64,000 nucleotides of DNA from a bacterium. GTDB taxonomy: Bacteria; Desulfobacterota_D; UBA1144. The first letter of the stretch is position 1, and every line of letters starts with the position of its first letter. The position numbers and the translations under genes are program-made. The notes under the pieces were generated by a model, which was given only the letters and a program-made list of their open reading frames with translations, was not told where the DNA came from and made no database searches. The DNA lies in NCBI GenBank assembly GCA_018654605.1, contig JABILG010000019.1, positions 88,742-152,741 on the forward strand, in the 5' to 3' direction. Shown in pieces: positions 9,184 to 23,027 of this stretch.

Positions 9184-9435
9184 TTGGTTATAATTTACAT
9201 TATAATTATGAGAAATTTTCTTTGCTCTTTCTTTATACTGTTCTTTTTCTCTCGTACCGCTTTTGCATATATAGACCCAGCGTCTGGAAGTACTATAATA
9301 TCGCTTATTATTGGAGGCACAGTGTTAATAGGAGTCTTTCTGAAGACTTTTTGGTATAAGCTTAAATCGTTAGTTGGGATTAAAGATGTAAACAATAAAC
9401 CTGTTAGGACAACTGAAAACAATAAGAACCTGTAA
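9184..9435 (+). CDS. small signal-peptide/TM protein, first gene of the operon (stop overlaps next start as TAATG)
   Basis: MRNFLCSFFILFFFSRTAFA signal-like segment followed by a second hydrophobic helix; translational coupling to next ORF. Confidence 0.35.
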   Translation: MVIIYIIIMRNFLCSFFILFFFSRTAFAYIDPASGSTIISLIIGGTVLIGVFLKTFWYKLKSLVGIKDVNNKPVRTTENNKNL

Positions 9436-12428
9436 TGGATACTCCTAATGTCTTCATTCTTGGTGCATCCTATCCAATAGCCGGGAAACAACCATCGAGT
9501 CTTCAAAGTATCACTGAAAAAACTAAAGTGCTCGATTGGCAGCTTGATAGTTTTAAGTCGATTAATTGGAAGAAGATTAATTTTCTAGGTGGTTACAATA
9601 TAGAAGATATTATAAAACATTACCCAGAAGTTAATTATATTTTAGTTGAAAATTGGGAATCAAATTCTTTACTAGATACTTTTTTTCAATGTCCTATGGA
9701 AGATTCTCCCGCTATTTTCACTTATGCAGATACGATTTTTCGTCCGGAGATTTTAAAGAAAATATCAAAAAGCAAAGCAGATATTGCTGTTGCGATAGAT
9801 ATTAACTATGAAACTCGTTATGATAATCGTTCGAAAGCTGATATAGGAATTGCAGAGATAATTATTCCTAATCACGGAGAATTTAAAGGTCAGAATTCTG
9901 AATTTACTGGTCTCTTTGGCATGCAACCTCATGTTGCCAAAATAGTAAGGACAATAAAGGGTAAGATTCCAGGGGTAAACCTCTTGGACCTTCTTTCTTA
10001 TTTTGAGAAAAGTGGATTACATATTGATTATATTGACGTTGGAACTAATTGGGCTGAATTGAACGAGCCACAAGATATAGCAAGGTTTATATTGGGGAAT
10101 AAAGCTCAGACATTGTCAAGATTAGCCCCTATGGTTAGGAAGAGTAAAATTGGAAAGCAGATTAGCTTTACTGTTAATGAGTGGTTCAACAAGAAGGATT
10201 TAATTATTTCAGAGATTCAAGAATTTTTTCATGAGAAGAGATTAATCATAAGAAGTAGTGCGTTAGATGAAGATGGATGGAGCAACTCCCTTGCCGGCCA
10301 ATACAAAAGTATCCCAAATGTAGATAGTGGTTCAATTAAGTCGATAATTAAAGTCGTTAAGGAAGTTATATCGTCTTATGGTGGAAGTAGAAATGATAGC
10401 AATGACGAAGTCTTAATTCAGGAATTTCTTGATGATATAAGTATTTCTGGCGTAGTATTTACATGTCAGTTAGAAACAGGTGCGCCTTATCATACTTTTA
10501 ATTTTCAAGATACTGAAGGTTCAATAGAAGCGATAACCTCAGGCACATCTCAAGATGACAGAACTATTGTATTACATAGAAGGGAAATTGCAGAATTAAA
10601 GAAGTTGGAACCAAAGCTTGAACCAGTCAGAAAGGCGATAGACGAATTAAAAGACTTGCTGTCTTTTGATAAATTAGATATCGAGTTTGCAATAGACAAG
10701 AAAGGACTAGTTCATATTCTTCAGGTTCGACCAATTGCAGTAGACCACAGAGAGTACGACGATGTAACTAATTTATTTGAGGACAAACTAGATGAGGCAG
10801 CTGCTTTATTTGTTTCTTTCCAAGATCAATCAGATGTCCTCTTAGGTAGCACAACATCTTTTAGTAATATGTCAGATTGGAATCCTGCGGAAATTATTGG
10901 AATTCATCCTAATCCTTTAGCTTTTAGCCTCTATAGGTTTTTGATAACTGATGATGTTTGGGCTGAACAACGTTCAGAGTTTGGTTATCGTAAAATTAAG
11001 GAATGCCCATTAATCATTGCATTTTGTGGTCAGCCCTATGTCGATTTACGAGCTAGCTTCAATTCCTTTATCCCAGCCAACATTGATAGCACATTAGCAA
11101 AGAAGTTAATTACAGCCTATCTAGGCAACCTATCTTCCAGACCTCAGTATCATGATAAAATTGAGTTTGATATTGCGATGACTTCATGGACGCCAACTTT
11201 TAGAAGGGATGCAGAGGAAAGATTGATTTCTTGGGGTATAAATTCTAAAGAAATTAATAAACTTGAAGAAGGATTAAAGCTAATAACCTCAAGGGCCATA
11301 ATAAATTTTGAGAAAAATACTTCTATTGAAACTTTGACAAAAAATCGCGACAAAATTTTACAAAATAAAATGGGATTGTTAAACAAAGGACTTTCTTTGC
11401 TTGTTGATTGTAAGAAGAATGGGACGCTAGCCTTCGCACATTCTGCACGACATAGCTTTGTTGCCATAAGTTTTCTTAAGAGTTTTATAGAAATTGATAT
11501 ATTCACTAAAGACGAAGTAGACTTGCTATTATCTTCCATCGAGGGTGTTTCTACTAGTATGCGAAAGAACCAAATTGCTTTACTCGATCGTAAAATTACC
11601 TTGGATGAGATGATTCTAAAATACGGCCACCTGCGCCCAGGTACATACGACGCTACGGCTCCTGCCTATTGGGAAGACTCTCAGTATTATTTAAAAGCAG
11701 AAAATAGTAATATGAATATAAAGTCCTCAAATTTTGATTTATCTAAAAAACAGGAAAACTCGATAGTGGAATTTATGAAGGATCTTGGTGTAAGTATTGC
11801 TCCCAATAAGCTAATTAATTATATGAAAAGTGCAATTGTAGCTCGAGAGGAAACAAAGCTAGAATTTACTCGTAATTTAAGCCTGGCGTTAGACTGTTTC
11901 GTAGAATTTGGCAAAGAGATTGGGTTAAGTCGTAAGGAGGTTGTTTATTTAGAATATAAGGATTTTGAACAACTTAGTTTAGATGGTTTAGATTTTAATG
12001 AAGTTAAACAAATTATTAGTTCTCGTATGACTCAAGACAAGCTGAATCATATGTTTGAGATTCCGCCATTTATAAAAAGTAAAGAAGATTTTTATTGTTT
12101 TGAGCATTATGATGCTCAAATAAATTATATTACCAATAAGAAGATTATTGGTAAATTAAAGAATTTAAATACAAGAGTTCACGACAATTTAGAAGGCAAG
12201 ATTATTTTGACACATCAGGCCGATCCTGGGTACGATTGGGTTTTTAGTCGTAATATTGTTGGATTGATAACTGAACATGGTGGCGCTAACTCTCACATGG
12301 CGATTAGAGCAGCTGAACTAGGATTACCCGCCGCTATAGGTATAGGTAGCAAGTTGTTCAATAAATTAGCCAAAAGTAATAAAATTAAATTAGATTGTGG
12401 TAACCATAATATTATAATTATTAATTGA
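9435..12428 (+). CDS. fusion protein: N-terminal LicC-like nucleotidyl(cytidylyl)transferase domain + PPDK/PEP-synthase-type ATP-grasp domain + C-terminal phosphohistidine 'swivel' domain (glutamine-kinase / rifampin-phosphotransferase-like architecture)
   Basis: aa ~1-230 N..Y...N...SL and WAELNEPQD resemble LicC-type NTases; middle RSSALDEDGWSNSLAGQYKS is the PPDK_N ATP-grasp motif; C-terminal ITEHGGANSHMAIRAAELGLPAAIG is the PEP-utilizing mobile His motif (His codon 12294-12296); no TIM-barrel domain after it. Confidence 0.6.
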   Translation: MDTPNVFILGASYPIAGKQPSSLQSITEKTKVLDWQLDSFKSINWKKINFLGGYNIEDIIKHYPEVNYILVENWESNSLLDTFFQCPMEDSPAIFTYADTIFRPEILKKISKSKADIAVAIDINYETRYDNRSKADIGIAEIIIPNHGEFKGQNSEFTGLFGMQPHVAKIVRTIKGKIPGVNLLDLLSYFEKSGLHIDYIDVGTNWAELNEPQDIARFILGNKAQTLSRLAPMVRKSKIGKQISFTVNEWFNKKDLIISEIQEFFHEKRLIIRSSALDEDGWSNSLAGQYKSIPNVDSGSIKSIIKVVKEVISSYGGSRNDSNDEVLIQEFLDDISISGVVFTCQLETGAPYHTFNFQDTEGSIEAITSGTSQDDRTIVLHRREIAELKKLEPKLEPVRKAIDELKDLLSFDKLDIEFAIDKKGLVHILQVRPIAVDHREYDDVTNLFEDKLDEAAALFVSFQDQSDVLLGSTTSFSNMSDWNPAEIIGIHPNPLAFSLYRFLITDDVWAEQRSEFGYRKIKECPLIIAFCGQPYVDLRASFNSFIPANIDSTLAKKLITAYLGNLSSRPQYHDKIEFDIAMTSWTPTFRRDAEERLISWGINSKEINKLEEGLKLITSRAIINFEKNTSIETLTKNRDKILQNKMGLLNKGLSLLVDCKKNGTLAFAHSARHSFVAISFLKSFIEIDIFTKDEVDLLLSSIEGVSTSMRKNQIALLDRKITLDEMILKYGHLRPGTYDATAPAYWEDSQYYLKAENSNMNIKSSNFDLSKKQENSIVEFMKDLGVSIAPNKLINYMKSAIVAREETKLEFTRNLSLALDCFVEFGKEIGLSRKEVVYLEYKDFEQLSLDGLDFNEVKQIISSRMTQDKLNHMFEIPPFIKSKEDFYCFEHYDAQINYITNKKIIGKLKNLNTRVHDNLEGKIILTHQADPGYDWVFSRNIVGLITEHGGANSHMAIRAAELGLPAAIGIGSKLFNKLAKSNKIKLDCGNHNIIIIN

Positions 12429-12444
12429 GGTACAATTTATAATT

Positions 12445-13074
12445 ATGAAGATATTAGCTATAAGCCAAAGAGTAGAAAATATTTATGAATACTCTGAGAA
12501 ACGCGATTGCTTAGATCAAAGGTGGACCAGCCTGATTCATAGGCTTGGTTTTTTGCCTCTTCCTTTATCTAATCTTGCTTCACCCTCAGAGTTTATAGAA
12601 AATATAACCCCTTCAGCCATTATCTTAAGTGGAGGAAACAATATAGCCAAAGTAGATAAATTAGCTTTAGATGTTTCAACTGAGCGAGATAAATTTGAAG
12701 AAAGATTAATCAAGATTGCAATAAAGAAAAATATCCCAATTATAGGTGTGTGTAGGGGGATGCAAATGATCAACTTGTTCTTTGATGGATCAATGTCGCA
12801 GGTTGTGAATCACACAGGCGTCAAACACGAGATTACTTTTGTAGGTAAATATTTAGAAGAAGAATCTAGAGAAGTTAATAGTTACCATAGATGGTGTATT
12901 CAGGAGCCAGGTCTCGGAAGGTCGTTAGTTCCATTAGCTATAGCGAACGACGGAACAGTCGAGTCTTTTTATCATGAAAAGTATCCAATTCTTGGTATTA
13001 TGTGGCACCCTGAACGAGAGGAGCCACACGTGCAGGACGATTTAAATCTTATTAAAAAGTTTGTTCAATCATGA
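12445..13074 (+). CDS. class I glutamine amidotransferase-like / peptidase C26 family hydrolase
   Basis: GVCRGMQMIN nucleophile-elbow Cys, downstream HPE catalytic His/Glu; 209 aa. Confidence 0.7.
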   Translation: MKILAISQRVENIYEYSEKRDCLDQRWTSLIHRLGFLPLPLSNLASPSEFIENITPSAIILSGGNNIAKVDKLALDVSTERDKFEERLIKIAIKKNIPIIGVCRGMQMINLFFDGSMSQVVNHTGVKHEITFVGKYLEEESREVNSYHRWCIQEPGLGRSLVPLAIANDGTVESFYHEKYPILGIMWHPEREEPHVQDDLNLIKKFVQS

Positions 13075-13850
13075 GGGCACTAATTCTAGCCGCTGGTGAA
13101 GGCTCAAGATTAAGGCCATTAACTAAAGATAAACCTAAAGCTTTAGTAGAACTTTGTGATAAGACTTTACTTGAAAGACAAGTCTCAATCTTACAAAAAG
13201 CTGGTATTACCGATATTGCGATAGCAACCGGCTACAAAGGAGAGCAAATACAAGAGTTGGGTTTTAATTGTTATCATAATCCTGATTATGCCACTAGCAA
13301 TATGGTTTATAGTCTTTTTAATGCTTTGCCGTTTTTGGAAAGAGAAGGAGATTTAATAATATCTTATGGTGATATTGTTTACGAGTTAGACAATTTAAAA
13401 AAAATAATTACGTCAGATGCAGCTGTAAATGTAATGGTAGATAAGGAGTGGTTTAAATATTGGAAGATGAGATTTGTAGATCCTTTAACAGATGCAGAGA
13501 GTCTAATATTAAATGATGATGGAACAATAAAGGAGCTGGGTTTAAAAACAGAGAGCTATAACGATATTCAAGGTCAGTATATTGGGTTAATAAAAGTAAG
13601 ACGTGATAAGTTGAAAGCTTTAATAAGTTTTTATCATAATCTAAAGATAAAAAAATCATCTAATATTAAAGATCTTAATAATATGTTTTTAACAGATTTT
13701 ATACAATTGTTAATCAATGCAGACTGGGATATAAGGGCTATATTAATTAGTGGAGGATGGTTGGAGGTAGACTCTTTAAAAGATCTTAATCTTTATGAGG
13801 GATTAGCAAAAAGTAAGGAGCTAGATTCTTATTGTAGGTTAGATAAGTGA
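13071..13850 (+). CDS. sugar-/alcohol-phosphate nucleotidyltransferase (LicC/CTP:phospho-X cytidylyltransferase-like)
   Basis: MRALILAAGEGSRLRPLTKDKPKALVEL signature; ATGA overlap with upstream gene. Confidence 0.8.
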   Translation: MRALILAAGEGSRLRPLTKDKPKALVELCDKTLLERQVSILQKAGITDIAIATGYKGEQIQELGFNCYHNPDYATSNMVYSLFNALPFLEREGDLIISYGDIVYELDNLKKIITSDAAVNVMVDKEWFKYWKMRFVDPLTDAESLILNDDGTIKELGLKTESYNDIQGQYIGLIKVRRDKLKALISFYHNLKIKKSSNIKDLNNMFLTDFIQLLINADWDIRAILISGGWLEVDSLKDLNLYEGLAKSKELDSYCRLDK

Positions 13851-14989
13851 GAACTTTTTTTAAACAACTAAGTCAATTGATTAGCTTTACTCAGTTATCA
13901 AAAGCTGAGAAAAGTATAGTCTTTTATTCTGAAGGCAAAGATTCTTGGATACATTTAAAAGGACTTATAGAGGAATTTTTGAAAACTTCTAAAATACATA
14001 TTTGCTATATAAGCTCTGAAGAGAATGACCCTGGTTTAAACTTAAAAGATCCTAAATATAAAGCTTTTTGTATAGGAAGTGGATATATGAGGGATTGGTT
14101 GTTTTCTAATATTCAGACAAACATAATGGTTATGACAATGCCTGACTTAAACTCTTTTCAGCTGAAGCAATCTAGCTATAATGTGCACTATGTTTATCTA
14201 CAGCACTCGTTAGTTAGCCTTCATATGGCATACCGTAAAGGCGCCTTTGATTATTTTCAAACTATTTTTTGTGCTGGAGCACATCACGTTAAGGAGCTGA
14301 GACGTATTGAACAGATTCAGAATTTGAAGCCTAAGAATCTTGTTCAGCATGGTTATAGCCGTTTAGATCAGATTATAAAAGAAACCCCTAGAAATTTAAG
14401 AATTACCAGATCTCTTAAACCTATTAAGCATATATTGATTGCACCTTCGTGGGGGGAAAATACTATTATTGATATGATTGGCGAGGAATTAGTTAGCATA
14501 TTGTTAACAGATGGGTTCAAAGTTACTTTGCGCCCTCATCCTCAGACTATCAAATTATCATGGCATAAAGTAGAGCAAATATTAAAAAAGCATGAAGCAA
14601 ATTCTTTATTTAATTTAGAGGTTGAGATGTCTAGCCAAGTATCTCTAAGTGAATCTGATTTGATGGTTAGTGATTGGTCAGGCGCCGCGCTGGACTATGC
14701 GTTTGGTCTCAATAAGCCTGTATTATTTATCGATCTTCCAAAAAAAGTGAATAATTATGATTATAATGAACTAGAAATTGAACCTCTTGAGGTATCTATC
14801 CGTTCAAAAATAGGCGGGATTCTTGCTTTAGATGAGTTGCCTAATATAGCAACTTGTATTAACGCTTTATTAAAGAGTTATGATAATCAAAAGCTGATGC
14901 AGCTTTCTAATGATACGGTGTATAATTTAGGGTCTGCTGACAGTGTTGGCGTCCAAGCGTTAGAAGAATTAATTAATAATAATGTATGA
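13847..14989 (+). CDS. CDP-glycerol glycerophosphotransferase (TagB/TagF) family phosphotransferase
   Basis: LIAPSWGEN (cf. TagF YAPTWR) and MVSDWSGAALDYAFGLNKPVLFIDLP (cf. LITDYSS...DF..L.KP) motifs; GTGA overlap start. Confidence 0.6.
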   Translation: MRTFFKQLSQLISFTQLSKAEKSIVFYSEGKDSWIHLKGLIEEFLKTSKIHICYISSEENDPGLNLKDPKYKAFCIGSGYMRDWLFSNIQTNIMVMTMPDLNSFQLKQSSYNVHYVYLQHSLVSLHMAYRKGAFDYFQTIFCAGAHHVKELRRIEQIQNLKPKNLVQHGYSRLDQIIKETPRNLRITRSLKPIKHILIAPSWGENTIIDMIGEELVSILLTDGFKVTLRPHPQTIKLSWHKVEQILKKHEANSLFNLEVEMSSQVSLSESDLMVSDWSGAALDYAFGLNKPVLFIDLPKKVNNYDYNELEIEPLEVSIRSKIGGILALDELPNIATCINALLKSYDNQKLMQLSNDTVYNLGSADSVGVQALEELINNNV

Positions 14990-17253
14990 CGATGAGATAT
15001 AAACAAGCAGTAAACTTATTAGCCTTCTTTAGCTTGGTAATCTTTGTAGTTATACCAGGCACTCTCTATTTGTTTAACCATAATCAATGGAACTATGATT
15101 ATTGGCTTCTAATATATTTCTGTGGATTTGGTGCGATAAGTTTTATTGCTCTATATCTTGTTTACTATGCGATTAATAAATTCTCTAACAGGTATGCAGA
15201 AATATTCGCCTATATTATCTTTTCTATAGGCTTAATTACATTATTGAATGATACATTGTCCCCAGTCCAGCTTGGCTTGTTGGATGGAAGTAGGATTCAT
15301 AGCAATGAGCCATTCTTCTATACATTAATTGAATCCATCATCACTTTTATAGCTATAGGATTTGTATGGTTTTCGGTTAAGAAAAATAAACAGTGGATAT
15401 ATATAATTATCAAACCCATATATTTCGTGAGTGCAGGACTGATTATCTTTAGCCTGGTACTTCAGGATGGCTTTCAAGAGAAAGAAGAGGCTAAGAATAA
15501 ATTGCAAGTTCGAGAGTTGCCTAATATATACCACTTCCATATTGATGGTATGCAAACAGACTATTTTTTACGTTATATAAATAATCATCCAGAAGTTAAA
15601 AAGAAGCTTGAAGGTTTTACACTATTTGAAAAGAACATTGCTAATTATCATAGTACAATGTTGTCTTTACCTAGTTATATGACCAGTACAACACATTTAG
15701 AAGGTAGGTTTGATAAATGGCTGAAGAGTTATGACCAGGGCCTACTGAGAAAATTAAAAAAGCGAGGCTATAGATTAGTCCATAATAGCAACGCTCCTTA
15801 TAGAAGTAATTATTTTGATAAGATAATCGCGATTCCAGAACTGTTAAAAAGATATAACGGTGCTCAACATCTATCTATAGTAGAATTTACCAGGATATGG
15901 CTGACTAAAATAATTCCTAATTTCTTAACAAATGAATCTTTATCCCTAGGAAAAGAAATTGGTAAACGTTTTTTTTATATACTCAATCCTAATCATGACA
16001 CAGACATTGCGTTAACCATGGAAGATGGGACAGCGGCACTATCTGGGATTCTATTATTTAAAGACATGATGTCAGATATTGATTATTACTCGCGTCCTAA
16101 TCAGTACGTATTCTCTCTTAATTCTATTCTACACGATAGCTATGTTAGTTCTCCAAGCTGTAAGATAGAAAAAAGACCTGATTTTCCGGTAGCCCAAAGA
16201 TACTACCGACAGCTTGAGTGTGCAATGATGCTCATTGAAGAATTTGTGTACACACTAAAAAGCCTAGATCGCTATAATGATTCACTAATTGTGATTCATG
16301 GTGATCATGGGTCTGCCTATGCGGGTCAACTGCTAGATTTCCAAGATAGTTCCTTTCAAACAAACATGGATAACGCGGACATGTCACCTTTCGACACTGT
16401 AATTGGGAGTAAAAGCTTAAAAGTGCTTGAATCCAAGGCTAGGGCATTGTTAATGGTTAAGCCTATATTCGCCACTGGTGAAATGGTTATATCTAATCTT
16501 CCTACACATTTACTAGATGTGTATCCAACCATCATGGGACAGATTGGTGTTAATAATCTAGAGAACATTAAAGGCGTAGATTTATTCAGCAATAAAGATA
16601 TACAAGACAGACAGCGTTATTTTTATTACATGGGTGGTAGTTCGCATCATGCTCAAATAACAAATTATCATACTATGATTCCGGATTATGATGGTAATTC
16701 GGGTATTTTATCGTTGGTTCCAAAGAGTACAGGTAAAACAACGGCAAAATCTTTCTTTAAGAATGCAAAAGATATAAAAGAATATAGAGATATTAAGTTC
16801 TATTACACAACTGTGAACGGGAAGCTTGAAAATAATAGAGCTTGGATATTCGTTGAAGGAATAGACCTTCCTCGAAATTGGGGATCCTGGACAAACAGTG
16901 ACAAGGTTACCTTAGCCTTTGTGCCAGAGAATCCAAGCCCGTTAGAATATAGAGCATTAACTTTAAGGATATCTGATATATTCGTTAACTTTAAAAATCC
17001 ACAGCTTAGCGCCAAGTTTTATTTAAATAAAAAATTAATTGGCTCACTAGTTTTTGGTATGCCTAAGAGCCAATACTCTTTTCCACAAGATGTTGAATTT
17101 GAACTCTCTAAGGATCTAATTATTTATGACCAGCCCAATGTGTTGGAGATATATATAGAAGGAGCTAATTCAGAAAGAGGTTTAGGAATAGGTGTAGATG
17201 ATAGAAAACTAGGGCTGGCTCTAGTTGAGTTATCATTAAAAAAATATAAGTGA
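14986..17253 (+). CDS. polytopic membrane protein with sulfatase/alkaline-phosphatase-superfamily catalytic domain (LtaS/EptA/OpgB-like phospho-group transferase) plus ~200-aa C-terminal extension
   Basis: ~5 N-terminal TM helices; NIYHFHIDGMQTDYF metal-site region and VIHGDHGSAYAG (GDHG) sulfatase motif; ATGA overlap start. Confidence 0.6.
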   Translation: MTMRYKQAVNLLAFFSLVIFVVIPGTLYLFNHNQWNYDYWLLIYFCGFGAISFIALYLVYYAINKFSNRYAEIFAYIIFSIGLITLLNDTLSPVQLGLLDGSRIHSNEPFFYTLIESIITFIAIGFVWFSVKKNKQWIYIIIKPIYFVSAGLIIFSLVLQDGFQEKEEAKNKLQVRELPNIYHFHIDGMQTDYFLRYINNHPEVKKKLEGFTLFEKNIANYHSTMLSLPSYMTSTTHLEGRFDKWLKSYDQGLLRKLKKRGYRLVHNSNAPYRSNYFDKIIAIPELLKRYNGAQHLSIVEFTRIWLTKIIPNFLTNESLSLGKEIGKRFFYILNPNHDTDIALTMEDGTAALSGILLFKDMMSDIDYYSRPNQYVFSLNSILHDSYVSSPSCKIEKRPDFPVAQRYYRQLECAMMLIEEFVYTLKSLDRYNDSLIVIHGDHGSAYAGQLLDFQDSSFQTNMDNADMSPFDTVIGSKSLKVLESKARALLMVKPIFATGEMVISNLPTHLLDVYPTIMGQIGVNNLENIKGVDLFSNKDIQDRQRYFYYMGGSSHHAQITNYHTMIPDYDGNSGILSLVPKSTGKTTAKSFFKNAKDIKEYRDIKFYYTTVNGKLENNRAWIFVEGIDLPRNWGSWTNSDKVTLAFVPENPSPLEYRALTLRISDIFVNFKNPQLSAKFYLNKKLIGSLVFGMPKSQYSFPQDVEFELSKDLIIYDQPNVLEIYIEGANSERGLGIGVDDRKLGLALVELSLKKYK

Positions 17254-17310: not shown

Positions 17311-17688
17311 ATGGTTTTATTCACTAAAGTTACCGGATTAATTTTAATTTTTCTTGGAGGATTGGGATATTATTTATATGAAACTCGTACTGTATTAATT
17401 CCTATAATCTTGGGCTCGTTAATTCTCATTTTAGGATTGGTTGCAGATAATCTAAACAGAAAAAGAATGGCTATACACATCGCTGTAATGTTAACAGTAG
17501 TGGGTCTGGTTGTGTGCTGGAGCGGAATCAAAGAACTTCCGCTATTGTTATCTTGTGGTGGAATATTGACTTGTGATGCGGTAAATAGACCCGTTGCAGT
17601 TTTATTTAGGTCAACAATGTTCATCGTTCTTTTTCCTTACTTTATTGCTTCAATAATATTTTTTATTAAAGCAAGAATGAGTAAATAA
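17311..17688 (+). CDS. hypothetical 4-TM membrane protein
   Basis: Strong RBS AAAGGAG 7 nt upstream; four hydrophobic helices. Confidence 0.4.
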   Translation: MVLFTKVTGLILIFLGGLGYYLYETRTVLIPIILGSLILILGLVADNLNRKRMAIHIAVMLTVVGLVVCWSGIKELPLLLSCGGILTCDAVNRPVAVLFRSTMFIVLFPYFIASIIFFIKARMSK

Positions 17689-17709: not shown

Positions 17710-18153
17710 ATGGGATTCCCAAAGATAAAATCTAATATATCAGAGATTAGCTCTTATACGGGTAGCAAAGAGAAGTATCCAATGTTCATAGCAAGAGTTC
17801 AGGCAGGCTTCCCTTCGCCAGGAGATGACTATATTGAAAAGAATCTTGATTTAAATGAGCTTTTAATAAAGAACCCCTCGGCAACTTTTTTTGTAAAAGT
17901 TGAAGGAGATTCTATGGTTAACGCTGGAATAAACTCGGGGGATACTTTAGTCGTAGATAAAGCGGTAGAGGCCAAAGACAAGAGTGTGGTAATTGCTTAT
18001 ATTAATGGAGAATTGACAGTTAAAAGGATTTGGCTTGGAAAGGGAAAGGTTTTTTTAAACCCTGAGAATGAAGATTTTAGCCCTATAGAAGTTACAGAAG
18101 AGACAGATTTTGATATATGGGGAGTCGTGACCTACGTAATACATAAGGTTTGA
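17710..18153 (+). CDS. umuD: translesion DNA polymerase V accessory subunit UmuD (S24 peptidase, LexA-like)
   Basis: [40 protein letters not shown] aligns closely with E. coli UmuD including AG cleavage site, Ser (GDSM) and Lys (KRIW..GK). Confidence 0.8.
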
Positions 18154-18154
18154 T

Positions 18155-19420
18155 ATGAGTAAGTATATAGCTTTAATTGATTGTAATAATTTCTATGCCT
18201 CATGTGAGCGCGTATTTGACCCATCATTACAAGATAAGCCAGTTGTTGTTCTCTCTAATAATGATGGATGTGTTATCGCGAGGTCTGCCGAAGCTAAGAT
18301 GGTTGGAATAAAGATGGGAGAGCCATTGTTCAGGTGCAAAGATATTATTAAGAAAGAGTCGGTAAGAGTTTTTTCATCTAACTATACTTTATATGCGGAC
18401 ATGTCTAATAGGGTAATGAGCATCATTAAGAATCATTTTGAAGACGTAGAGATTTATTCTATAGATGAGGCATTTGTTTTTATTGAGACAATTTCAGTTG
18501 ATAATTTATCTAAAGAGCTTGTAGCTTTAAGAAATAAAATCTTAAAATGGACTGGGATACCTGTATCTATAGGTGTGTCGACAACAAAGACTTTGGCAAA
18601 ATTAGCAGGAAGAAAAGCAAAAAAGAATTTAGGCGTTTACTGCCTTTGTGCTCGTAAAGATTTTACCAATGTTTTGAGAGAAACACCGGTAGGATCAGTC
18701 TGGGGGATAGGACGTAGGTTAGAAAAAAGAATTCTTTTAAAGGGCATATCTAATGCTTACCAGTTAAGTTTTTTTGATCACAAAAAAGCCAGAAGTCTTG
18801 GTAGTATAAACCTTGTTCGCACCATTTTGGAGCTTAATGGGCTTTCATGTCTGGGTATTGATTCAGCACCTGAGAACAAAAGACAGATTACAACTTCTAG
18901 GGCTTTTGGAAGCCCCATATATACCTTAGATTTGCTTCAGGAGGCAGTTTCAGTGTATATGTCTCGCGCTGCCGAAAAGCTGAGATTTCAGGGTTCAAGT
19001 TGCTCTACTATTACTGTAGCTCTTTCTACAAATCGTTTTAGTCAAAGAGAAGATTATAAGTTCCTTGTTAAAACCCAATCATTAATTTCTTCGACAGACT
19101 CAACGTCTAAGCTGATTAGTGTAGGTAAAGAAATTTTAGAGTCTATATTTAAGAAAGGACTCGGCTATAAGAAGGCTCATATCTTTCTTTCCGGCCTGGA
19201 GAAATCTACCTCAAAACAATATTCGCTAGAAGATAATGTTGCTTCTATAGCCAAGGAGACGAACCTTATGAGAGTGCTGGATAGGCTAAATATTTTCTAT
19301 GGTAGAGATACATTGAAATATGCTAGTACAGGGATTTCACGTGATTGGCTTATGAAAAGAGAGAAGAAATCTCAAAGCTATACAACTAATTGGAGCGAGA
19401 TTCTTACAATACAACTATAA
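18155..19420 (+). CDS. umuC: Y-family DNA polymerase V catalytic subunit UmuC
   Basis: [20 protein letters not shown]...[16 protein letters not shown]-terminus typical of UmuC; 421 aa; 1-nt spacing from umuD. Confidence 0.85.
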
Positions 19421-19831
19421 TATTATATAAGTTATACAGATAACCTTGAGAAACCAAAGGAAAACTCTAATTATGTTTCCATTAATTAATTTATTGATTT
19501 CTAGGATTGATTTACCTGAAGAAAGTTTGTTATGGCTAGGGATTTGTAAAATAAATGTCGTAACCCAGATTAAAAAAACTATTAATAAATTAGCTAATGA
19601 GAATAGGGAGTAGTAAAAATAGCATATTAATATTGATGTAGTGGCCTCAATAATCATCAAAGGAAGGACAATGAAAGAAATATTTTTTACATGAAATTTA
19701 TGAAATTCTATAAAATTAGCATCACTAATAAATTTGAAGGACTTATAGTGTACAAAGTGAATTATTAATATAAGGCCAAGTAATGCAGATGAGGTAATTA
19801 AATTAGAGTAAAAAAGAAGTACGTATTCCAT
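19415..19831 (-). CDS. hypothetical small 4-TM membrane protein
   Basis: Hydrophobicity only; contiguous with downstream oxidoreductase gene. Confidence 0.35.
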
Positions 19832-21024
19832 TAATATAATGACACCACTAAGTTAGTGCCAGATTGAATAGAGCCATTTAAAGAAGGTTCTGATAAATAG
19901 TCACCAGCAAAATATATTTGATTAGAATATTCATAAAAACATTTATCTCTGAAGTTAAATAAATCCTTTGTTGAAGGAAGTGCATTAACAACTTTGATAT
20001 CTTTTAAGAAATTGATTTCATCCATATTCTTAAAATAACTTAAAATTTCATTTTCTATAGTGTCTTTGTCGCTATTAATTGATAAAGAGGAGGCGGAAAG
20101 AATTAGTTGATCATTGTCCAGTCTGTTGAATGACATATTGGCAATATTCTTTGATTCAGGGAATAAGTATATTAAGCAATCATCAATATCCTTAATTTTA
20201 ACTTTAAAGTAGAAGCACCTAGTACTGTTATATTCTAGATTTTTAAAAAATCCTTTATTTATTTTTTGGTCAATGGCACCCTCGATTTGAGGGTCAGTAC
20301 ATAATAGTTTTTTAAAATAAAAAGTTTCCCCACTATTTGTTGTTAAATAATTACTATAAATTTGCTCCACTTTGACATTTTGTTTGATTTTTCTATAATC
20401 AAGCTTTTCTGCAATTTTTTGGATTATCTGGTTTATTCCATATTGGGGTATGCAGACCTGACTAGTTGCAAAGAGATTGAATATGAAAAAAAAATACCTT
20501 AGAGGAACATTTAGTTTTTTATCTAAAAATACTCCTTGAAAAAAAGATATAAAGAAATCATTGATAAACGACTCTGTGAATCCAAAATCTTTAAGAAATT
20601 TTAACACCTTAATGTTTTGATTTTCATATCTATTGCTTAGCATGAAAAGCTTAATTAATAGATATTTATCTTTTATAGTAAAGCCTGGGAAAGTATTATT
20701 GAAAAATATAGCCTGAAAGTTTTTTAGAGGATTTAATACCTTGAATATCTTATCTTTTTTCTTTATAGCAAAGCCAGATTTAAACTTTTTATATGGAATA
20801 TTATTAATTTCCGGAAATAATTTTAGTGTCGGATAATCTCTTAGTAGAATTTGAAAGCCTCTATCTAAATTATATTCAGATAGACTTATTGTTGAAATTT
20901 TTCCACCCATAGTAATGTTTTTATCTAAGATTAAATAACTAATGTTCTTGGCAGATAAAAGTTTAGCTATAGTAAGTCCTGTTATACCGCTTCCAATTAT
21001 AATATTATCATATGAGTTGTTCAT
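19831..21024 (-). CDS. FAD/NAD(P)-binding amine-oxidase-type oxidoreductase
   Basis: N-terminal IIIGSGITGLTIAKLL...LDKN..GGK dinucleotide-binding fold; 397 aa. Confidence 0.65.
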   Translation of the reverse strand: MNNSYDNIIIGSGITGLTIAKLLSAKNISYLILDKNITMGGKISTISLSEYNLDRGFQILLRDYPTLKLFPEINNIPYKKFKSGFAIKKKDKIFKVLNPLKNFQAIFFNNTFPGFTIKDKYLLIKLFMLSNRYENQNIKVLKFLKDFGFTESFINDFFISFFQGVFLDKKLNVPLRYFFFIFNLFATSQVCIPQYGINQIIQKIAEKLDYRKIKQNVKVEQIYSNYLTTNSGETFYFKKLLCTDPQIEGAIDQKINKGFFKNLEYNSTRCFYFKVKIKDIDDCLIYLFPESKNIANMSFNRLDNDQLILSASSLSINSDKDTIENEILSYFKNMDEINFLKDIKVVNALPSTKDLFNFRDKCFYEYSNQIYFAGDYLSEPSLNGSIQSGTNLVVSLY

Positions 21025-21731
21025 TCTGATGGCGGCAATATCCAGTTTCCAATTTTACCCGCATTACCATGGACCCCTTTAAATATGATTGATAAACTAA
21101 ACGAAGCAAAGAAAATAATAATTCTGGAAATATTAGGCAGTCCAAAATTTTTTTCAATTTTTGAATTTAATCTTGATTGGGTTGAAGGTATTGGATAAAA
21201 AATTGATTCAACTGCTTTACTTCTATTGTAATTTTTGTCTTGATTTTCTTCATAAATATTCAAATTTTCTTTAAATAAATTTAAATCTTTCTTTTTCATA
21301 ATATTGTCTATATTATAAATACCTCTTTGGCTTAATGTAGGCAAAATTAATATATATACAAATCCAATTATATTGAATATTAGTGAAACTTTAATAGTAA
21401 AAGCTACAGCAGAGATATTAGTATTTGAATAGTATGAATAAAGAATTATGAATAAAATAGTATTAATAACGATGCTAAATATGTAAGACCTAATATGATT
21501 TTTTTTCTTGATGTTTAACTTAAACCTCTCTAAATGGAATTTATAGTTTTTGAAGTTTTGCCTGGTCCAATGTTTAGGCACCACAATTATAGTGTCTTTA
21601 AAGGTTCTTAAGATATTCATTGTCATATATGAGGGTGCTTCTGGAATAATGATTAATGAAAATCCATCTATTTTATCGGACTTACCTTTCATGAATGTTT
21701 TTATTGATAATTCCTGAAGTGGTAACAACAT
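21021..21731 (-). CDS. hypothetical membrane protein
   Basis: Central hydrophobic helices; ATGA overlap with downstream oxidoreductase gene. Confidence 0.4.
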   Translation of the reverse strand: MLLPLQELSIKTFMKGKSDKIDGFSLIIIPEAPSYMTMNILRTFKDTIIVVPKHWTRQNFKNYKFHLERFKLNIKKKNHIRSYIFSIVINTILFIILYSYYSNTNISAVAFTIKVSLIFNIIGFVYILILPTLSQRGIYNIDNIMKKKDLNLFKENLNIYEENQDKNYNRSKAVESIFYPIPSTQSRLNSKIEKNFGLPNISRIIIFFASFSLSIIFKGVHGNAGKIGNWILPPSE

Positions 21732-22070
21732 TAATTGGGTTATTGTTGATAATAGAATACAAAGGGAGAGGCTTTGTTTATGGTAGCTATAAAAAATTAT
21801 ACTCCCATATAATATAAAAATTAAAAAGAGAATTATATTGGCCGAGATTATTTCTAGTATCTTTTTTTCTTCTTTAGGATTTAGTTTTATATGAGAAAAA
21901 ATATCAAATGGTAAGGTGAATATTATTATAAAAATATGTAGACATAAACTGTTTTTATAGTGTTACCAAAGTGTAAGATTATATGATTTTCTATTTGGAA
22001 ATATAGAGCAATTATGGATGCAAGTACAATTACGCCTATATACAATATTCCAATTGATAATTTAGCATTA

Positions 22071-23027
22071 TTAAATTTCATTTTTAAGATATTTAGTAGC
22101 AATAGATATACCTGAATTAATTGCTCCATCAAACCTACCATTAGTAAATATATCGCCACATAAACCAATAAAATTATTAGTTCCTATATTGATAGAATCA
22201 CCTTCTGTGTAGAAATTTTTAGGGATAGAATATTTCCATTTATGGTTAGATAAAATTTCATATTCAGGACCGAATATATATTTTAGATTATCTTCTAACA
22301 TTAGATTAATCGAAGCGTAATCCTTTTCAAAATTTATAGCGCTAAATTCAGGTGAACATATTAATGTATAGAAGTTTTGTTTTTTTGAAACATTTTTCTT
22401 AAAATTATCAGCGATGAAACTAATAGGTCCTTCAGGGTTTTCTTGATAGAACTTTTTATCTAGATTTAAGGGCGCAGTAGATTCGATCATTAAAATTATT
22501 GCTAAATAATATTCCAACCTTTCCAAGCTCTCAAGATGAATTTTATTATAATTAATATTACTTTTTTCTATAATCTCTAGGGATTGTTTGATCGGGGAAG
22601 ATAAAATTATTGAATCAGTTAGAATCTTTTCGTTATTTTCAAAATTCATTTCAAGGGATCCATTGATTTCATTAATAGCTAATAGTTTGAATTCTTTTTT
22701 AACGTTCAGGTCTTTTGTTAAAAATTTGGCAATGTTCGTCATTCCATCTAAGCCAATAAAGATTCCAGGTTCTTCTGTTTCCGCAAGGGTCTTATTGTCA
22801 ATCAAGGTTCTTATCTCTGGACGTTGTAATAAAGAATCAATTTTGATATATTGGATTCCATGATCAAATTTTCCATCGTTTGCTCTTCTGGTTGCCAACC
22901 TGCCCCCAACACCTCTAGATTTATCAAATAACTGAACATTCTCTATTCCAGCTTTTTTTAGCTCTAGGGCTGCAAATATTCCGCTTATTCCACAACCAAT
23001 AATTGAAACTGAATTCTTACTATTCAT
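22071..23027 (-). CDS. renalase-like NAD(P)/FAD-dependent oxidoreductase (COG3380-type)
   Basis: VSIIGCGISGIFAALELKKAG...FDKSRGVGGRLATRR; 318 aa. Confidence 0.65.
   Translation of the reverse strand: MNSKNSVSIIGCGISGIFAALELKKAGIENVQLFDKSRGVGGRLATRRANDGKFDHGIQYIKIDSLLQRPEIRTLIDNKTLAETEEPGIFIGLDGMTNIAKFLTKDLNVKKEFKLLAINEINGSLEMNFENNEKILTDSIILSSPIKQSLEIIEKSNINYNKIHLESLERLEYYLAIILMIESTAPLNLDKKFYQENPEGPISFIADNFKKNVSKKQNFYTLICSPEFSAINFEKDYASINLMLEDNLKYIFGPEYEILSNHKWKYSIPKNFYTEGDSINIGTNNFIGLCGDIFTNGRFDGAINSGISIATKYLKNEI

What the first reader, a model, noticed from the sequence alone, without database searches (positions are those of the whole stretch)
13847..17253. TagF-like phosphotransferase and LtaS/sulfatase-family membrane enzyme in what appears to be a diderm bacterium
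Seen: LIAPSWGEN and SDWSGAALDYAFGLNKPVLFIDLP match the CDP-glycerol glycerophosphotransferase family. The next gene has ~5 TM helices plus a GDHG sulfatase-superfamily domain and an extra ~200-aa C-terminal module. Established: TagB/TagF enzymes transfer alcohol-phosphate from CDP-alcohols releasing CMP. The LtaS/EptA/OpgB family transfers phospho-head groups onto periplasmic or surface glycans. Inference: these are the two candidate transferases that install the CDP-activated product of the upstream genes. One could act from the cytoplasmic side and the other from the periplasmic side, or the TagF-like enzyme could use CDP-amidate directly, which would make a 3'-phosphorylation step unnecessary.
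Basis: partly seen in the sequence, partly recalled or inferred. Interest (0 to 1): 0.65.

Follow-up and report, generated by a model that had tools for sequence, protein, structure and literature searches.

The report
Phosphoramidate transferase pair in marine bacterium
Two adjacent genes, a TagF-like enzyme inside the cell and an LtaS-like enzyme outside the inner membrane, are the likely installers of an unusual phosphorus-nitrogen group on the cell envelope, and they belong to a widespread, uncharacterised marine gene cluster that elsewhere sits beside methylphosphonate synthesis genes.

Summary
ORF 13847-14989 (380 aa) is a divergent TagF-like GT-B enzyme: Pfam PF04464 is above its cut-off, and TagF and TarL are the best structural matches. 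ORF 14986-17253 (755 aa) has five TM helices, an outward-facing alkaline-phosphatase-superfamily domain and a C-terminal beta-sandwich. Its profile matches LtaP/LtaS best.

Both genes end a six-gene operon joined by overlapping stop and start codons. The order is: small membrane protein, Cj1418-type glutamine kinase, C26 amidohydrolase, LicC-like nucleotidyltransferase, TagF-like, LtaS-like.

The TagF donor-side histidine is present (H231 = TagF H584). An invariant H120 sits where the acceptor-side histidine should be, but that equivalence is topological only. The LtaS-like protein keeps D187, T224, H383 and D440-H441.

No APS-kinase-type (Cj1415-like) gene occurs in the window or in any of 87 related loci. 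The same TagF-like family also sits next to PEP-mutase/MpnS phosphonate genes.

Best reading, inferred and not shown: the TagF-like enzyme uses CDP-amidate directly, releases CMP, and modifies a membrane-bound acceptor. The LtaS-like enzyme then acts in the periplasm. I class this as a new variant of known kinds. Acceptor, donor identity and chemistry are untested.

The parts
9208..9435 (+). Small membrane protein 'sm' (75 aa). It has a signal peptide ending AFA, then YIDPASGS, one TM helix, then FWYKLKS and a polar tail. It is the first gene of the operon.
   Evidence: Translation. Called as a gene on public contigs. The motif Y[IL]DP[GA][ST]GS was found in 53 of 56 homologues next to TagF-like genes. 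No Pfam or NCBIfam match; sources name it 'hypothetical'. Its stop overlaps the kinase start (TAATG).
9435..12428 (+). 997-aa protein. Residues 213-996 are a Cj1418-type L-glutamine kinase (PPDK_N plus the PEP-utilizer mobile His domain). Residues 1-212 are an extra domain distantly related to nucleotidyltransferases.
   Evidence: NCBIfam NF004508/PRK05849 equivalog, 873.8 bits against a cut-off of 501. Pfam PF01326 and PF00391. The N-domain hits NTP-transferase ORFs weakly. It has no Pfam hit of its own.
12445..13074 (+). C26/class-I glutamine amidotransferase-like hydrolase, a candidate gamma-glutamyl-CDP-amidate hydrolase (Cj1417-like).
   Evidence: Pfam PF07722 at 95.8 bits. The best NCBIfam hit is NF045546, gamma-glutamyl-CDP-amidate hydrolase, at 158 bits, which is below its cut-off of 250. 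The GVCRGMQ and WHPE motifs are present.
13071..13850 (+). Nucleotidyltransferase (259 aa), a candidate CTP:phosphoglutamine cytidylyltransferase (Cj1416-like).
   Evidence: Pfam PF12804 and PF00483. The best solved relative is LicC, CTP:phosphocholine cytidylyltransferase 1jyk, at E 5e-15. It overlaps both neighbours by 4 nt.
13847..14989 (+). TagF-like GT-B phosphotransferase (380 aa), a candidate CDP-amidate:acceptor phosphoramidate transferase.
14204..14206 (+). Codon for H120 (YLQHS, just after strand 114-118). This is the candidate acceptor-side catalytic base, the position of TagF H444 and TarL H300.
   Evidence: Invariant in 79 of 79 family members. It occupies the same place in the strand order as QTWHG of TagF. 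Sequence alignment of the N-domain failed, so this equivalence is inferred.
14537..14539 (+). Codon for H231 (RPHPQ), the equivalent of TagF H584, the donor-side histidine.
   Evidence: hhalign aligns TLRPHPQ with LLRMHYL of TagF. H584 was identified from the H584A entry 3l7m. H231 is invariant in 79 of 79 members.
14986..15486 (+). Five-helix transmembrane domain of the LtaS-like protein (res 1-167).
   Evidence: Model. Lys/Arg-rich loops at the N-terminus and between TM2/3 and TM4/5 give an N-in topology with the catalytic domain outside. Full-length Foldseek alignments with PbgA 6xlp and MCR-1 9nww.
15523..16545 (+). Alkaline-phosphatase-superfamily catalytic domain (res 180-520), with D187, T224, H383 and D440-H441.
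   Evidence: PF00884. Family profile against PDB: LtaP 4uop E 1.3e-8, LtaS 2w5q E 1e-6. In those alignments D187 matches the E of HLESFQT, H383 the H of NHYPF, and D440-H441 the GDHY of LtaS. Conservation in 51 homologues: D187 50, T224 47 T plus 4 S, H383 50, D440 50, H441 50. There is no C/S-x-P-x-R sulfatase motif.
16666..17250 (+). C-terminal beta-sandwich module (res 561-755), possibly glycan-binding.
   Evidence: All-beta in the model. Only sub-threshold Pfam hints: DUF7024 at E 0.005 and BetaGal_ABD2 at E 0.005. It is missing or replaced in more distant homologues.
17311..17688 (+). 125-aa multi-pass membrane protein directly downstream. Its membership of the system is uncertain.
   Evidence: Conserved only in the closest relatives (L008, L049). 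No family match above cut-off.

Best explanation
The two genes are the transfer end of a phosphoramidate (P-N) envelope-modification operon.

Upstream steps, by homology to the C. jejuni MeOPN pathway: glutamine kinase makes N-phospho-L-glutamine. The LicC-like nucleotidyltransferase makes CDP-L-glutamine. The C26 hydrolase releases glutamate, leaving cytidine diphosphoramidate (CDP-amidate).

Inferred step 1: the TagF-like enzyme is a peripheral cytoplasmic GT-B protein. It binds CDP-amidate in its C-terminal domain (H231, R229, D276-W277-S278). It uses an N-domain histidine, probably H120, to activate a hydroxyl on a membrane-associated acceptor. It transfers the phosphoramidate and releases CMP. 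A 3'-phosphorylated donor (the Cj1415 step) is therefore not needed.

Inferred step 2, more weakly supported: the LtaS-like protein has its active site outside the membrane. It takes the head group from that membrane-anchored intermediate through a covalent Thr224 intermediate and passes it to the final periplasmic or surface acceptor. This is how LtaS, EptA and OpgB use lipid donors.

Shown here: the folds, the conserved catalytic residues, the operon structure and the conserved gene neighbourhood. Not shown: the donor, the acceptor, the product and the order of action.
For: Operon:
- Stop and start codons overlap at TAATG, ATGA, GTGA and ATGA.
- The same gene order recurs in Dadabacteria, Gammaproteobacteria (including cultured Vibrio), Flavobacteriales, Acidobacteria and others.

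Upstream pathway:
- The kinase passes the PRK05849 equivalog cut-off.
- The best NCBIfam hit of the C26 protein is gamma-glutamyl-CDP-amidate hydrolase.
- The nucleotidyltransferase is closest to a cytidylyltransferase, LicC.

TagF-like enzyme:
- Pfam match above cut-off.
- hhalign gives 95.5 % probability, with H231 aligned to TagF H584.
- H120, H126, R229, H231 and D276-S278 are invariant in 79 sequences.

No need for a 3'-kinase:
- No APS-kinase-family ORF was found in the window or in 87 loci. The query was validated.

Donors of the CMP-P(X) type:
- The same family sits next to cytidylyltransferase-PEP mutase fusions, phosphonopyruvate decarboxylase, Fe-ADH and MpnS homologues in 11 loci.
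- A TagF-like enzyme that uses a non-polyol CDP donor is already documented: FtaD with CDP-N-methylthreonine (bioRxiv 10.64898/2026.02.12.704994).

LtaS-like enzyme:
- Five TM helices with an outward-facing AP domain.
- LtaP and LtaS are the best sequence-profile matches.
- The metal ligands and the Thr nucleophile are conserved in 51 homologues.
- The gene co-occurs with the TagF-like gene in 30 of 41 loci that have full flanks.
Against: - There are no biochemical data for any member.
- The N-terminal domain of the TagF-like protein cannot be aligned to TagF by sequence, so H120 = H444 rests on strand order only.
- The C26 hit is below the NCBIfam cut-off.
- In about 26 loci the TagF-like gene has only a 219-aa methyltransferase in place of the kinase trio.
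- TagF-like sequences do not cluster by neighbouring module. Donor specificity therefore cannot be read from the sequence, and the donor may not always be made by neighbouring genes.
- Four of the phosphonate-type loci lack the LtaS-like gene, so the two enzymes are not obligatorily coupled.
- No flippase is evident.
- It could not be tested whether the C. jejuni MeOPN transferases Cj1421/Cj1422 are related.
Confidence: 0.55

Rival explanations
1. The TagF-like enzyme transfers phospho-L-glutamine from CDP-L-glutamine onto the acceptor, in the way FtaD transfers phospho-N-methylthreonine. The C26 hydrolase then trims glutamate from the installed group, leaving the phosphoramidate on the acceptor.
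For: FtaD shows that TagF-like enzymes can accept CDP-amino-acid donors. The C26 protein is below the cut-off for the CDP-amidate hydrolase equivalog, so its substrate may differ from that of Cj1417.
Against: The kinase, C26 and NTP genes always travel together, as in C. jejuni. There, according to the FtaD preprint, CDP-glutamine is hydrolysed to CDP-amidate rather than used as a donor. The C26 protein has no signal peptide or TM segment, so it could only trim a cytoplasmic-face product.
Confidence: 0.12
2. The two enzymes act independently on different acceptors. The TagF-like enzyme decorates a cytoplasmic-face glycan precursor that is exported by unlinked machinery. The LtaS-like enzyme adds an ordinary lipid-derived head group (phosphoglycerol or phosphoethanolamine) or acts as a hydrolase/phosphodiesterase on the envelope.
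For: Some loci have the TagF-like gene without the LtaS-like gene, including four phosphonate-type loci. LtaS, EptA and OpgB normally use bulk phospholipids (established knowledge). Foldseek also matches true hydrolases.
Against: There is a 4-nt overlap between the two genes. They co-occur in 30 of 41 complete neighbourhoods across phyla. The LtaS-like protein matches no curated EptA, LtaS or OpgB family in NCBIfam.
Confidence: 0.2
3. The TagF-like protein is a conventional CDP-glycerol/ribitol phosphotransferase that makes a teichoic-acid-like polymer. Its position beside the glutamine-kinase genes is coincidental.
For: Pfam and public annotations call it a CDP-glycerol glycerophosphotransferase.
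Against: No tagD/tarI/tarJ-type gene is in the cluster. The gene order is conserved and stop and start codons overlap. The N-domain is too divergent to align with TagF. The protein is a single 380-aa unit without the extra domains of the polymerases.
Confidence: 0.05
4. The LtaS-like protein is a non-catalytic PbgA/YejM-like sensor or lipid-binding protein.
For: PbgA/YejM is among the best full-length structural matches.
Against: The metal ligands and the Thr/Ser nucleophile are conserved in 47-51 of 51 homologues. LtaS and LtaP outrank YejM in profile searches: E 1e-8 to 1e-6 against 0.6.
Confidence: 0.05

Closest known systems
TagF / TarL / TarF wall-teichoic-acid phosphotransferases and TagF-like capsule polymerases (Cps3D, Bcs3); Pfam PF04464
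   Same: GT-B fold. The C-terminal donor-binding domain aligns, including the APxW, HGYxRxD and DxSx motifs and the TagF H584 histidine. The mechanism expected is CMP release from a CDP-linked donor.
   Different: The N-terminal acceptor domain cannot be aligned by sequence. The protein is a 380-aa single unit with no polymerase extensions. No polyol-CDP synthesis genes are nearby. The neighbours make P-N or P-C compounds instead.
FtaD (CD0244) of Clostridioides difficile, a TagF-like CDP-N-methylthreonine:GlcNAc phosphotransferase (bioRxiv 10.64898/2026.02.12.704994)
   Same: It is a TagF-like enzyme that follows a dedicated nucleotidyltransferase in an operon and transfers a non-polyol phospho-head group from a CDP donor.
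   Different: FtaD's donor is a CDP-amino acid and its acceptor is a flagellin glycan in a Gram-positive organism. It has no partner LtaS-like, YidC-like or small membrane protein. Sequence relatedness to FtaD was not tested here.
Campylobacter jejuni O-methyl phosphoramidate pathway (Cj1418, Cj1416, Cj1417, Cj1415; transferases Cj1421/Cj1422)
   Same: The first three biosynthetic enzymes have counterparts in the same operon, so CDP-amidate is the expected product.
   Different: No Cj1415-type 3'-kinase is present. There is no methyltransferase in the window's operon. The kinase carries an extra N-terminal domain. The transferases here are TagF-like and LtaS-like. Whether Cj1421/Cj1422 share either fold could not be tested.
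LtaS/LtaP, EptA/MCR-1, OpgB: five-TM alkaline-phosphatase-superfamily head-group transferases
   Same: Five TM helices followed by an extracytoplasmic AP domain. A Thr nucleophile at a helix N-terminus, an Asp/Glu metal ligand and a D-H pair are conserved. LtaP and LtaS are the best profile matches.
   Different: No curated NCBIfam family matches. It carries an extra C-terminal beta-sandwich. It is genetically tied to a cytoplasmic CDP-dependent transferase, which suggests a dedicated donor rather than a bulk phospholipid.
Phosphonate tailoring (PntC/LicC-type nucleotidyl activation; Rice et al. 2019, PMC6697681) and methylphosphonate synthesis (MpnS)
   Same: A small phosphorus head group is activated as a CMP conjugate and then transferred to a surface molecule. 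Members of this TagF-like family lie next to Ppm-Ppd-FeADH-MpnS genes.
   Different: The transferases discussed in that paper are LicD-like enzymes or glycosyltransferases. A TagF-like transferase for CMP-phosphonates or CDP-amidate was not found in the literature searched.

Membership tests
TagF/TagB/TarL family (PF04464, CDP-alcohol:acceptor phosphotransferases) | Profile match above the curated cut-off | tested here: met
   35.6 bits against a cut-off of 22.1, E 6.7e-9, but covering only residues 155-295. hhalign against TagF/TarL/Cps3D gives 95.5 % probability.
TagF/TagB/TarL family (PF04464, CDP-alcohol:acceptor phosphotransferases) | GT-B two-Rossmann fold, with TagF-type enzymes as the nearest structures | tested here: met
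TagF/TagB/TarL family (PF04464, CDP-alcohol:acceptor phosphotransferases) | Donor-side histidine (TagF H584) | tested here: met
   H231 aligns with H584 and is invariant in 79 of 79 members.
TagF/TagB/TarL family (PF04464, CDP-alcohol:acceptor phosphotransferases) | Acceptor-side catalytic histidine in the WHG motif (TagF H444, TarL H300) | tested here: inconclusive
   The N-domain shows no significant profile alignment. An invariant H120 follows the fifth strand, as H444 does in TagF. No residue-level superposition was available.
TagF/TagB/TarL family (PF04464, CDP-alcohol:acceptor phosphotransferases) | CDP-glycerol or CDP-ribitol as donor (tagD/tarIJ context) | tested here: not met
   No such genes are in the operon or flanks. 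The neighbours are glutamine kinase, a C26 hydrolase and a LicC-like NTP transferase.
LtaS/EptA/OpgB-type membrane head-group transferases (alkaline phosphatase superfamily) | N-terminal five-TM domain followed by an extracytoplasmic AP-fold domain | tested here: met
   Model, loop charges, and full-length structural alignments to PbgA and MCR-1.
LtaS/EptA/OpgB-type membrane head-group transferases (alkaline phosphatase superfamily) | Metal ligands plus a Thr nucleophile (LtaS E255/T300/D475/H476 pattern) | tested here: met
   D187, H383 and D440-H441 align to the LtaS residues. T224 lies at the N-terminus of helix 224-233, after strand 212-218. All are conserved in 47-51 of 51 homologues. The Thr equivalence rests on position, not on a printed alignment.
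LtaS/EptA/OpgB-type membrane head-group transferases (alkaline phosphatase superfamily) | Match to a curated family model (LtaS, EptA, OpgB and others) | tested here: not met
   No NCBIfam family matches at E <= 0.01. Only the generic Pfam Sulfatase domain matches.
True sulfatases (formylglycine enzymes) | C/S-x-P-x-R formylglycine motif at the nucleophile position | tested here: not met
   The sequence around the nucleophile is NYHSTMLSLPS, with Thr or Ser conserved and no CxPxR.
C. jejuni-type (O-methyl) phosphoramidate pathway | L-glutamine kinase (Cj1418 type) | tested here: met
   NF004508/PRK05849 equivalog, 873.8 bits against 501. That PRK05849 corresponds to Cj1418 is from my own knowledge.
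C. jejuni-type (O-methyl) phosphoramidate pathway | gamma-Glutamyl-CDP-amidate hydrolase (Cj1417 type) | tested here: inconclusive
   NF045546 is the best hit, but at 158 bits against a cut-off of 250.
C. jejuni-type (O-methyl) phosphoramidate pathway | CDP-amidate 3'-kinase (Cj1415, APS-kinase family) | tested here: not met
   No APS-kinase-family ORF in the window or in 87 loci at E < 0.01. The query was validated against PDB APS kinases. The rest of the genome is unseen.
C. jejuni-type (O-methyl) phosphoramidate pathway | Cj1421/Cj1422-type MeOPN transferase | not tested
The papers read give no fold family.

The most novel reading that the evidence does not exclude
The two genes may be half of an unrecognised four-part envelope machine:
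- a procoat-like small membrane protein, whose mature N-terminus is YIDPGSGS;
- the TagF-like CMP-P(X) transferase;
- a dedicated YidC-like paralogue;
- the LtaS-like periplasmic transferase.

This machine would install small P-N or P-C head groups (phosphoramidate, hydroxyethyl- or methylphosphonate) on the surface of many marine bacteria. The small protein or a lipid would carry the group across the membrane. If so, the machine would be a missing transferase step behind marine high-molecular-weight phosphonate esters. It would also point to an unnoticed P-N pool outside Campylobacter.
Probability: 0.2. Interest if true: 0.85.

Novelty: new variant of a known kind. Interest (0 to 1): 0.65.

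Why it matters
A 2019 review states that phosphoramidate sugar modifications have so far been identified only in Campylobacter (PMC6429109). In Campylobacter the transfer step is still uncharacterised.

This operon offers a simple candidate route: CDP-amidate plus a TagF-like transferase, with no 3'-kinase. The route is directly testable, because some carriers are cultured:
- with the glutamine-kinase genes: two Vibrio strains;
- with a methyltransferase in place of the kinase genes: Marinicella litoralis;
- with the kinase genes on the same contig but in a different order: Glycocaulis profundi.

The family is widespread. It occurs in 205 of about 185,600 species-representative genomes and in more than 3,500 metagenomic protein clusters.

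Relatives of the same transferase sit next to methylphosphonate synthase genes. The family may therefore also explain how marine phosphonates, the substrate for aerobic methane production, become attached to macromolecules.

Tried and rejected
- Direct phmmer and profile searches of the TagF-like protein against PDB sequences found nothing. I retrieved the TagF, TarL and Cps3D sequences with a recalled TagF-family consensus and then used hhalign.
- hhalign on the N-terminal domains alone (local, global and low-mact modes) gave no meaningful alignment. The H444 equivalence stays inferential.
- Promoter and terminator scans were no better than shuffled sequence.
- The afdb50 fold library was unavailable.
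- The Raushel and Metcalf primary papers were not held. Statements about Cj1415 being APS-kinase-like, and about sulfatase/nucleotidyltransferase genes in the N. maritimus MPn cluster, are from memory and are not used as evidence.
- I could not establish whether Cj1421/Cj1422 are TagF-like. The 'CGPTase' of PMC8949473 is a different capsule gene.
- I tested whether TagF-like sequences cluster by neighbouring donor module. They do not: A-A and A-B identities are both 47.5 %. I therefore dropped the idea of donor-specific subfamilies.
- The homologue search with the small protein returned only 8 unannotated hits.
- The window contains no YidC-like paralogue, no 219-aa methyltransferase and no second TagF-related paralogue.

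Full report
**Observation.** ORFs 13847-14989 (GTG start, 380 aa) and 14986-17253 (755 aa) are present as described. The first contains LIAPSWGEN (res 197-205) and SDWSGAALDYAFGLNKPVLFIDLP (res 275-298). It matches Pfam PF04464 (Glyphos_transf) at E 6.7e-9, 35.6 bits against a gathering score of 22.1, but only over residues 155-295. The second matches PF00884 (Sulfatase) at E 1.1e-8, 35.2 bits against 25, and contains HGDHG at 438-442. Neither protein matches any curated NCBIfam family.

**Operon context.** The two genes are the last of six same-strand genes:
- a 75-aa membrane protein, 'sm' (9208-9435);
- a 997-aa protein whose residues 213-996 pass the NCBIfam PRK05849 equivalog (873.8 bits against 501), which is the Cj1418 glutamine-kinase type;
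- a C26/GATase hydrolase whose best NCBIfam hit is gamma-glutamyl-CDP-amidate hydrolase (158 bits, below the cut-off of 250);
- a 259-aa nucleotidyltransferase whose closest solved relative is the cytidylyltransferase LicC (E 5e-15);
- the TagF-like gene;
- the sulfatase-fold gene.

Stop and start codons overlap at four junctions: TAATG, ATGA, GTGA and ATGA. The flanks are housekeeping genes (alaS, a sigma factor, umuDC, polA). GC content is uniform, so this is not an obvious island. The exact TagF-like protein is seen on 62 contigs in public assemblies. The nearest named genome, at 70 % identity with the same gene order, is a Candidatus Dadabacteria MAG, UBA1144. Lnt and a SurA_N-domain protein in the window fit a diderm envelope.

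Plain sequence searches against the PDB found nothing. I therefore recovered the TagF, TarL and Cps3D sequences with a family consensus. The mutant entries identify TagF H444 in QTWHG and H584 in LLRMHYL. Profile-profile alignment of the family with these three proteins gives 95.5 % probability (E 1.5e-8) over residues 154-295. It aligns HGYSRLD with IGYPRND, LIAPSWG with MYAPTWR, TLRPHPQ with LLRMHYL and SDWSGAALDYA with TDYSSVMFDYG. H231 is therefore the H584 equivalent.

The N-terminal domain does not align by sequence. The model's strand order matches TagF one-to-one, and an invariant H120 (YLQHS) directly follows the fifth strand, as H444 does. Across 79 family members from all neighbourhood types, H120, H126, R229, H231, D276, W277 and S278 are 100 % conserved.

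One histidine is demonstrated by alignment. The other is supported only by position.

**The LtaS-like protein.** The model (mean pLDDT 79.5) has five helices in residues 5-167, an alpha/beta domain at 180-520 and a beta-sandwich at about 561-755. Lys/Arg-rich loops at the N-terminus and between TM2/3 and TM4/5 place the catalytic domain outside the inner membrane. Foldseek finds sulfatases, PbgA/YejM, MCR-1 and LtaS. Only PbgA and MCR-1 align over the full length, which reflects the shared five-TM-plus-AP architecture.

A family profile searched against PDB sequences ranks LtaP (E 1.3e-8) and LtaS (E 1e-6 and 2.5e-5) above all sulfatases. It aligns D187 with the Glu of HLESFQT, H383 with NHYPF and D440-H441 with GDHY. 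T224 sits at the N-terminus of the helix after the second strand, which is the canonical nucleophile position. There is no CxPxR sulfatase motif.

In 51 homologues from many phyla, D187 (50), T224 (47 T, 4 S), H383 (50), D440 (50) and H441 (50) are conserved. The protein is therefore an active-looking member of the LtaS/EptA-type group. It is not a sulfatase, it is unlikely to be a non-catalytic PbgA-like protein, and it belongs to no curated family. The C-terminal module has only sub-threshold hints (DUF7024 and a beta-galactosidase all-beta domain).

**Comparative genomics.**
- The TagF-like family has more than 3,500 hits at about 50 % identity in metagenomic proteins. It occurs in 205 species-representative genomes. 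These include Gammaproteobacteria (Woeseiaceae, Marinicella, two cultured Vibrio), Alphaproteobacteria, Flavobacteriales, Acidobacteriota, Nitrospinaceae, Myxococcota, Planctomycetota and Chloroflexota.
- I clustered the neighbours in 85 loci. A recurring core emerged: sm (66 of 87 loci by phmmer), the TagF-like gene, a YidC-like paralogue (50 loci) and the LtaS-like protein (49 loci).
- Among the 41 loci with at least 7 kb on both sides, 30 have the LtaS-like gene, 28 the YidC-like gene and 31 sm.
- Three neighbouring modules alternate:
  - (A) kinase, C26 and NTP, in about 36 loci including the window;
  - (B) a 219-aa methyltransferase in exactly that position, in 26 loci, e.g. Marinicella litoralis;
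  - (C) phosphonate genes, in 11 loci. These comprise cytidylyltransferase-PEP mutase fusions, phosphonopyruvate decarboxylase, Fe-alcohol dehydrogenase and, in 8 loci, an MpnS/HEPD homologue. For the L084 copy the matches are E 1.8e-88 to methylphosphonate synthase 6b9s and 7.9e-64 to HEPD.
- One locus pairs an HTH-nucleotidyltransferase and a phosphonate ABC importer with the TagF-like gene.
- No APS-kinase-family ORF (the Cj1415 type) occurs in the window or in any locus. The query was validated.
- TagF-like sequences do not separate by module.

**Mechanism.** The common theme of modules A and C is a small phosphorus head group activated on CMP. That matches the CMP-releasing chemistry of TagF-type enzymes. 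It also matches the precedent of FtaD, a TagF-like enzyme that uses CDP-N-methylthreonine.

I therefore conclude, at about 0.55 confidence, that the TagF-like enzyme uses CDP-amidate directly to phosphoramidate a membrane-associated acceptor at the cytoplasmic face. This makes the Campylobacter 3'-phosphorylation step unnecessary. The LtaS-like enzyme most plausibly performs a second, periplasmic transfer from that membrane-bound intermediate, by analogy with LtaS, EptA and OpgB. This part is weaker, because some loci lack the gene and because the intermediate and its route across the membrane are unknown.

The alternatives are set out under rival explanations:
- transfer of phosphoglutamine from CDP-glutamine, with later trimming;
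- independent action of the two enzymes;
- a conventional teichoic-type role;
- a non-catalytic PbgA-like role.

**Literature.** A 2019 review states that MeOPN-type sugar phosphoramidates are known only from Campylobacter (PMC6429109). Cj1421/Cj1422 were assigned as MeOPN transferases by genetics (PMC9561416), and I could not establish their fold. Work on phosphonate tailoring names LicD-like transferases and glycosyltransferases (PMC6697681). Searches for a TagF-like CMP-phosphonate or CDP-amidate transferase found nothing. Acker et al. propose phosphonates on cell-surface glycoproteins in marine bacteria (PMC8931226), but none of the transferase-related terms I searched in that paper occurs in it.

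**Verdict.** This is a new variant of known enzyme kinds, set in an uncharacterised and widespread cluster. The strongest open points are the identity of the acceptor, the role of the small procoat-like protein and the YidC-like paralogue, and direct proof of the donor.

Noticed in passing
window 9208-9435 (+); homologues in 66 of 87 loci, e.g. L027 9079-9294: A tiny, very conserved membrane protein opens the operon. It has a signal peptide with an AxA site, then YIDPGSGS, a TM helix rich in small residues, YWYKLKS and a variable acidic tail. After cleavage only about 8 residues would face the periplasm. Tyr1 and Ser8 are nearly invariant. The layout resembles M13 procoat, a YidC substrate. 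It has no family assignment anywhere.
   Followed up: partly
related loci, e.g. L027 11139-12260, L005 10115-11293, L007 11893-13050: A dedicated YidC/Oxa1-like paralogue (about 370-440 aa; TIGR03592 at 112-120 bits) sits next to the TagF-like gene in 50 loci. None was found in this window. It may insert the small protein or move a lipid-linked intermediate across the membrane.
   Followed up: partly
window 9435-10070 (+), residues 1-212 of the 997-aa kinase: The glutamine-kinase homologue carries an extra N-terminal domain distantly related to nucleotidyltransferases. The domain lacks the usual GxGxR signature (its sequence is GASYPIAGK). It is conserved in the roughly 995-1045-aa kinases of other loci, and it falls outside the region matched by the PRK05849 model.
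   Followed up: partly
L084 3881-11086; also L050, L057, L058, L067, L076, L078, L085: Methylphosphonate-synthase-like genes (E 1.8e-88 to 6b9s), together with PEP mutase, phosphonopyruvate decarboxylase and Fe-ADH, lie directly next to members of the same TagF-like family. This suggests the family also transfers phosphonates.
   Followed up: partly
L015 12357-13709, L004 8511-9911, L007 13010-14452 and about 26 loci in all: A second protein of about 450-480 aa is linked to the TagF-like family by BLAST and has a weak Formyl_trans_N segment. It recurs in these clusters but is absent from the window.
   Followed up: no
L066 5440-9912: An HTH-fused nucleotidyltransferase and a phosphonate ABC importer (binding protein fused to the permease) sit just upstream of a TagF-like gene. 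This hints at salvage of external phosphonate for surface decoration.
   Followed up: no
window 17311-17688 (+): A 125-aa multi-pass membrane protein follows the LtaS-like gene after 57 nt. It is conserved only in the closest relatives (L008, L049). Its function is unknown.
   Followed up: no
window 17710-19420 (+): A umuD/umuC-type pair (Peptidase_S24, then IMS/DUF4113 translesion polymerase) lies immediately downstream of the cluster.
   Followed up: no
window 19415-23027 (-): A minus-strand run holds two NAD_binding_8/amino-oxidase-like proteins and unannotated membrane proteins. GC content drops to 0.26 at 20-22 kb.
   Followed up: no
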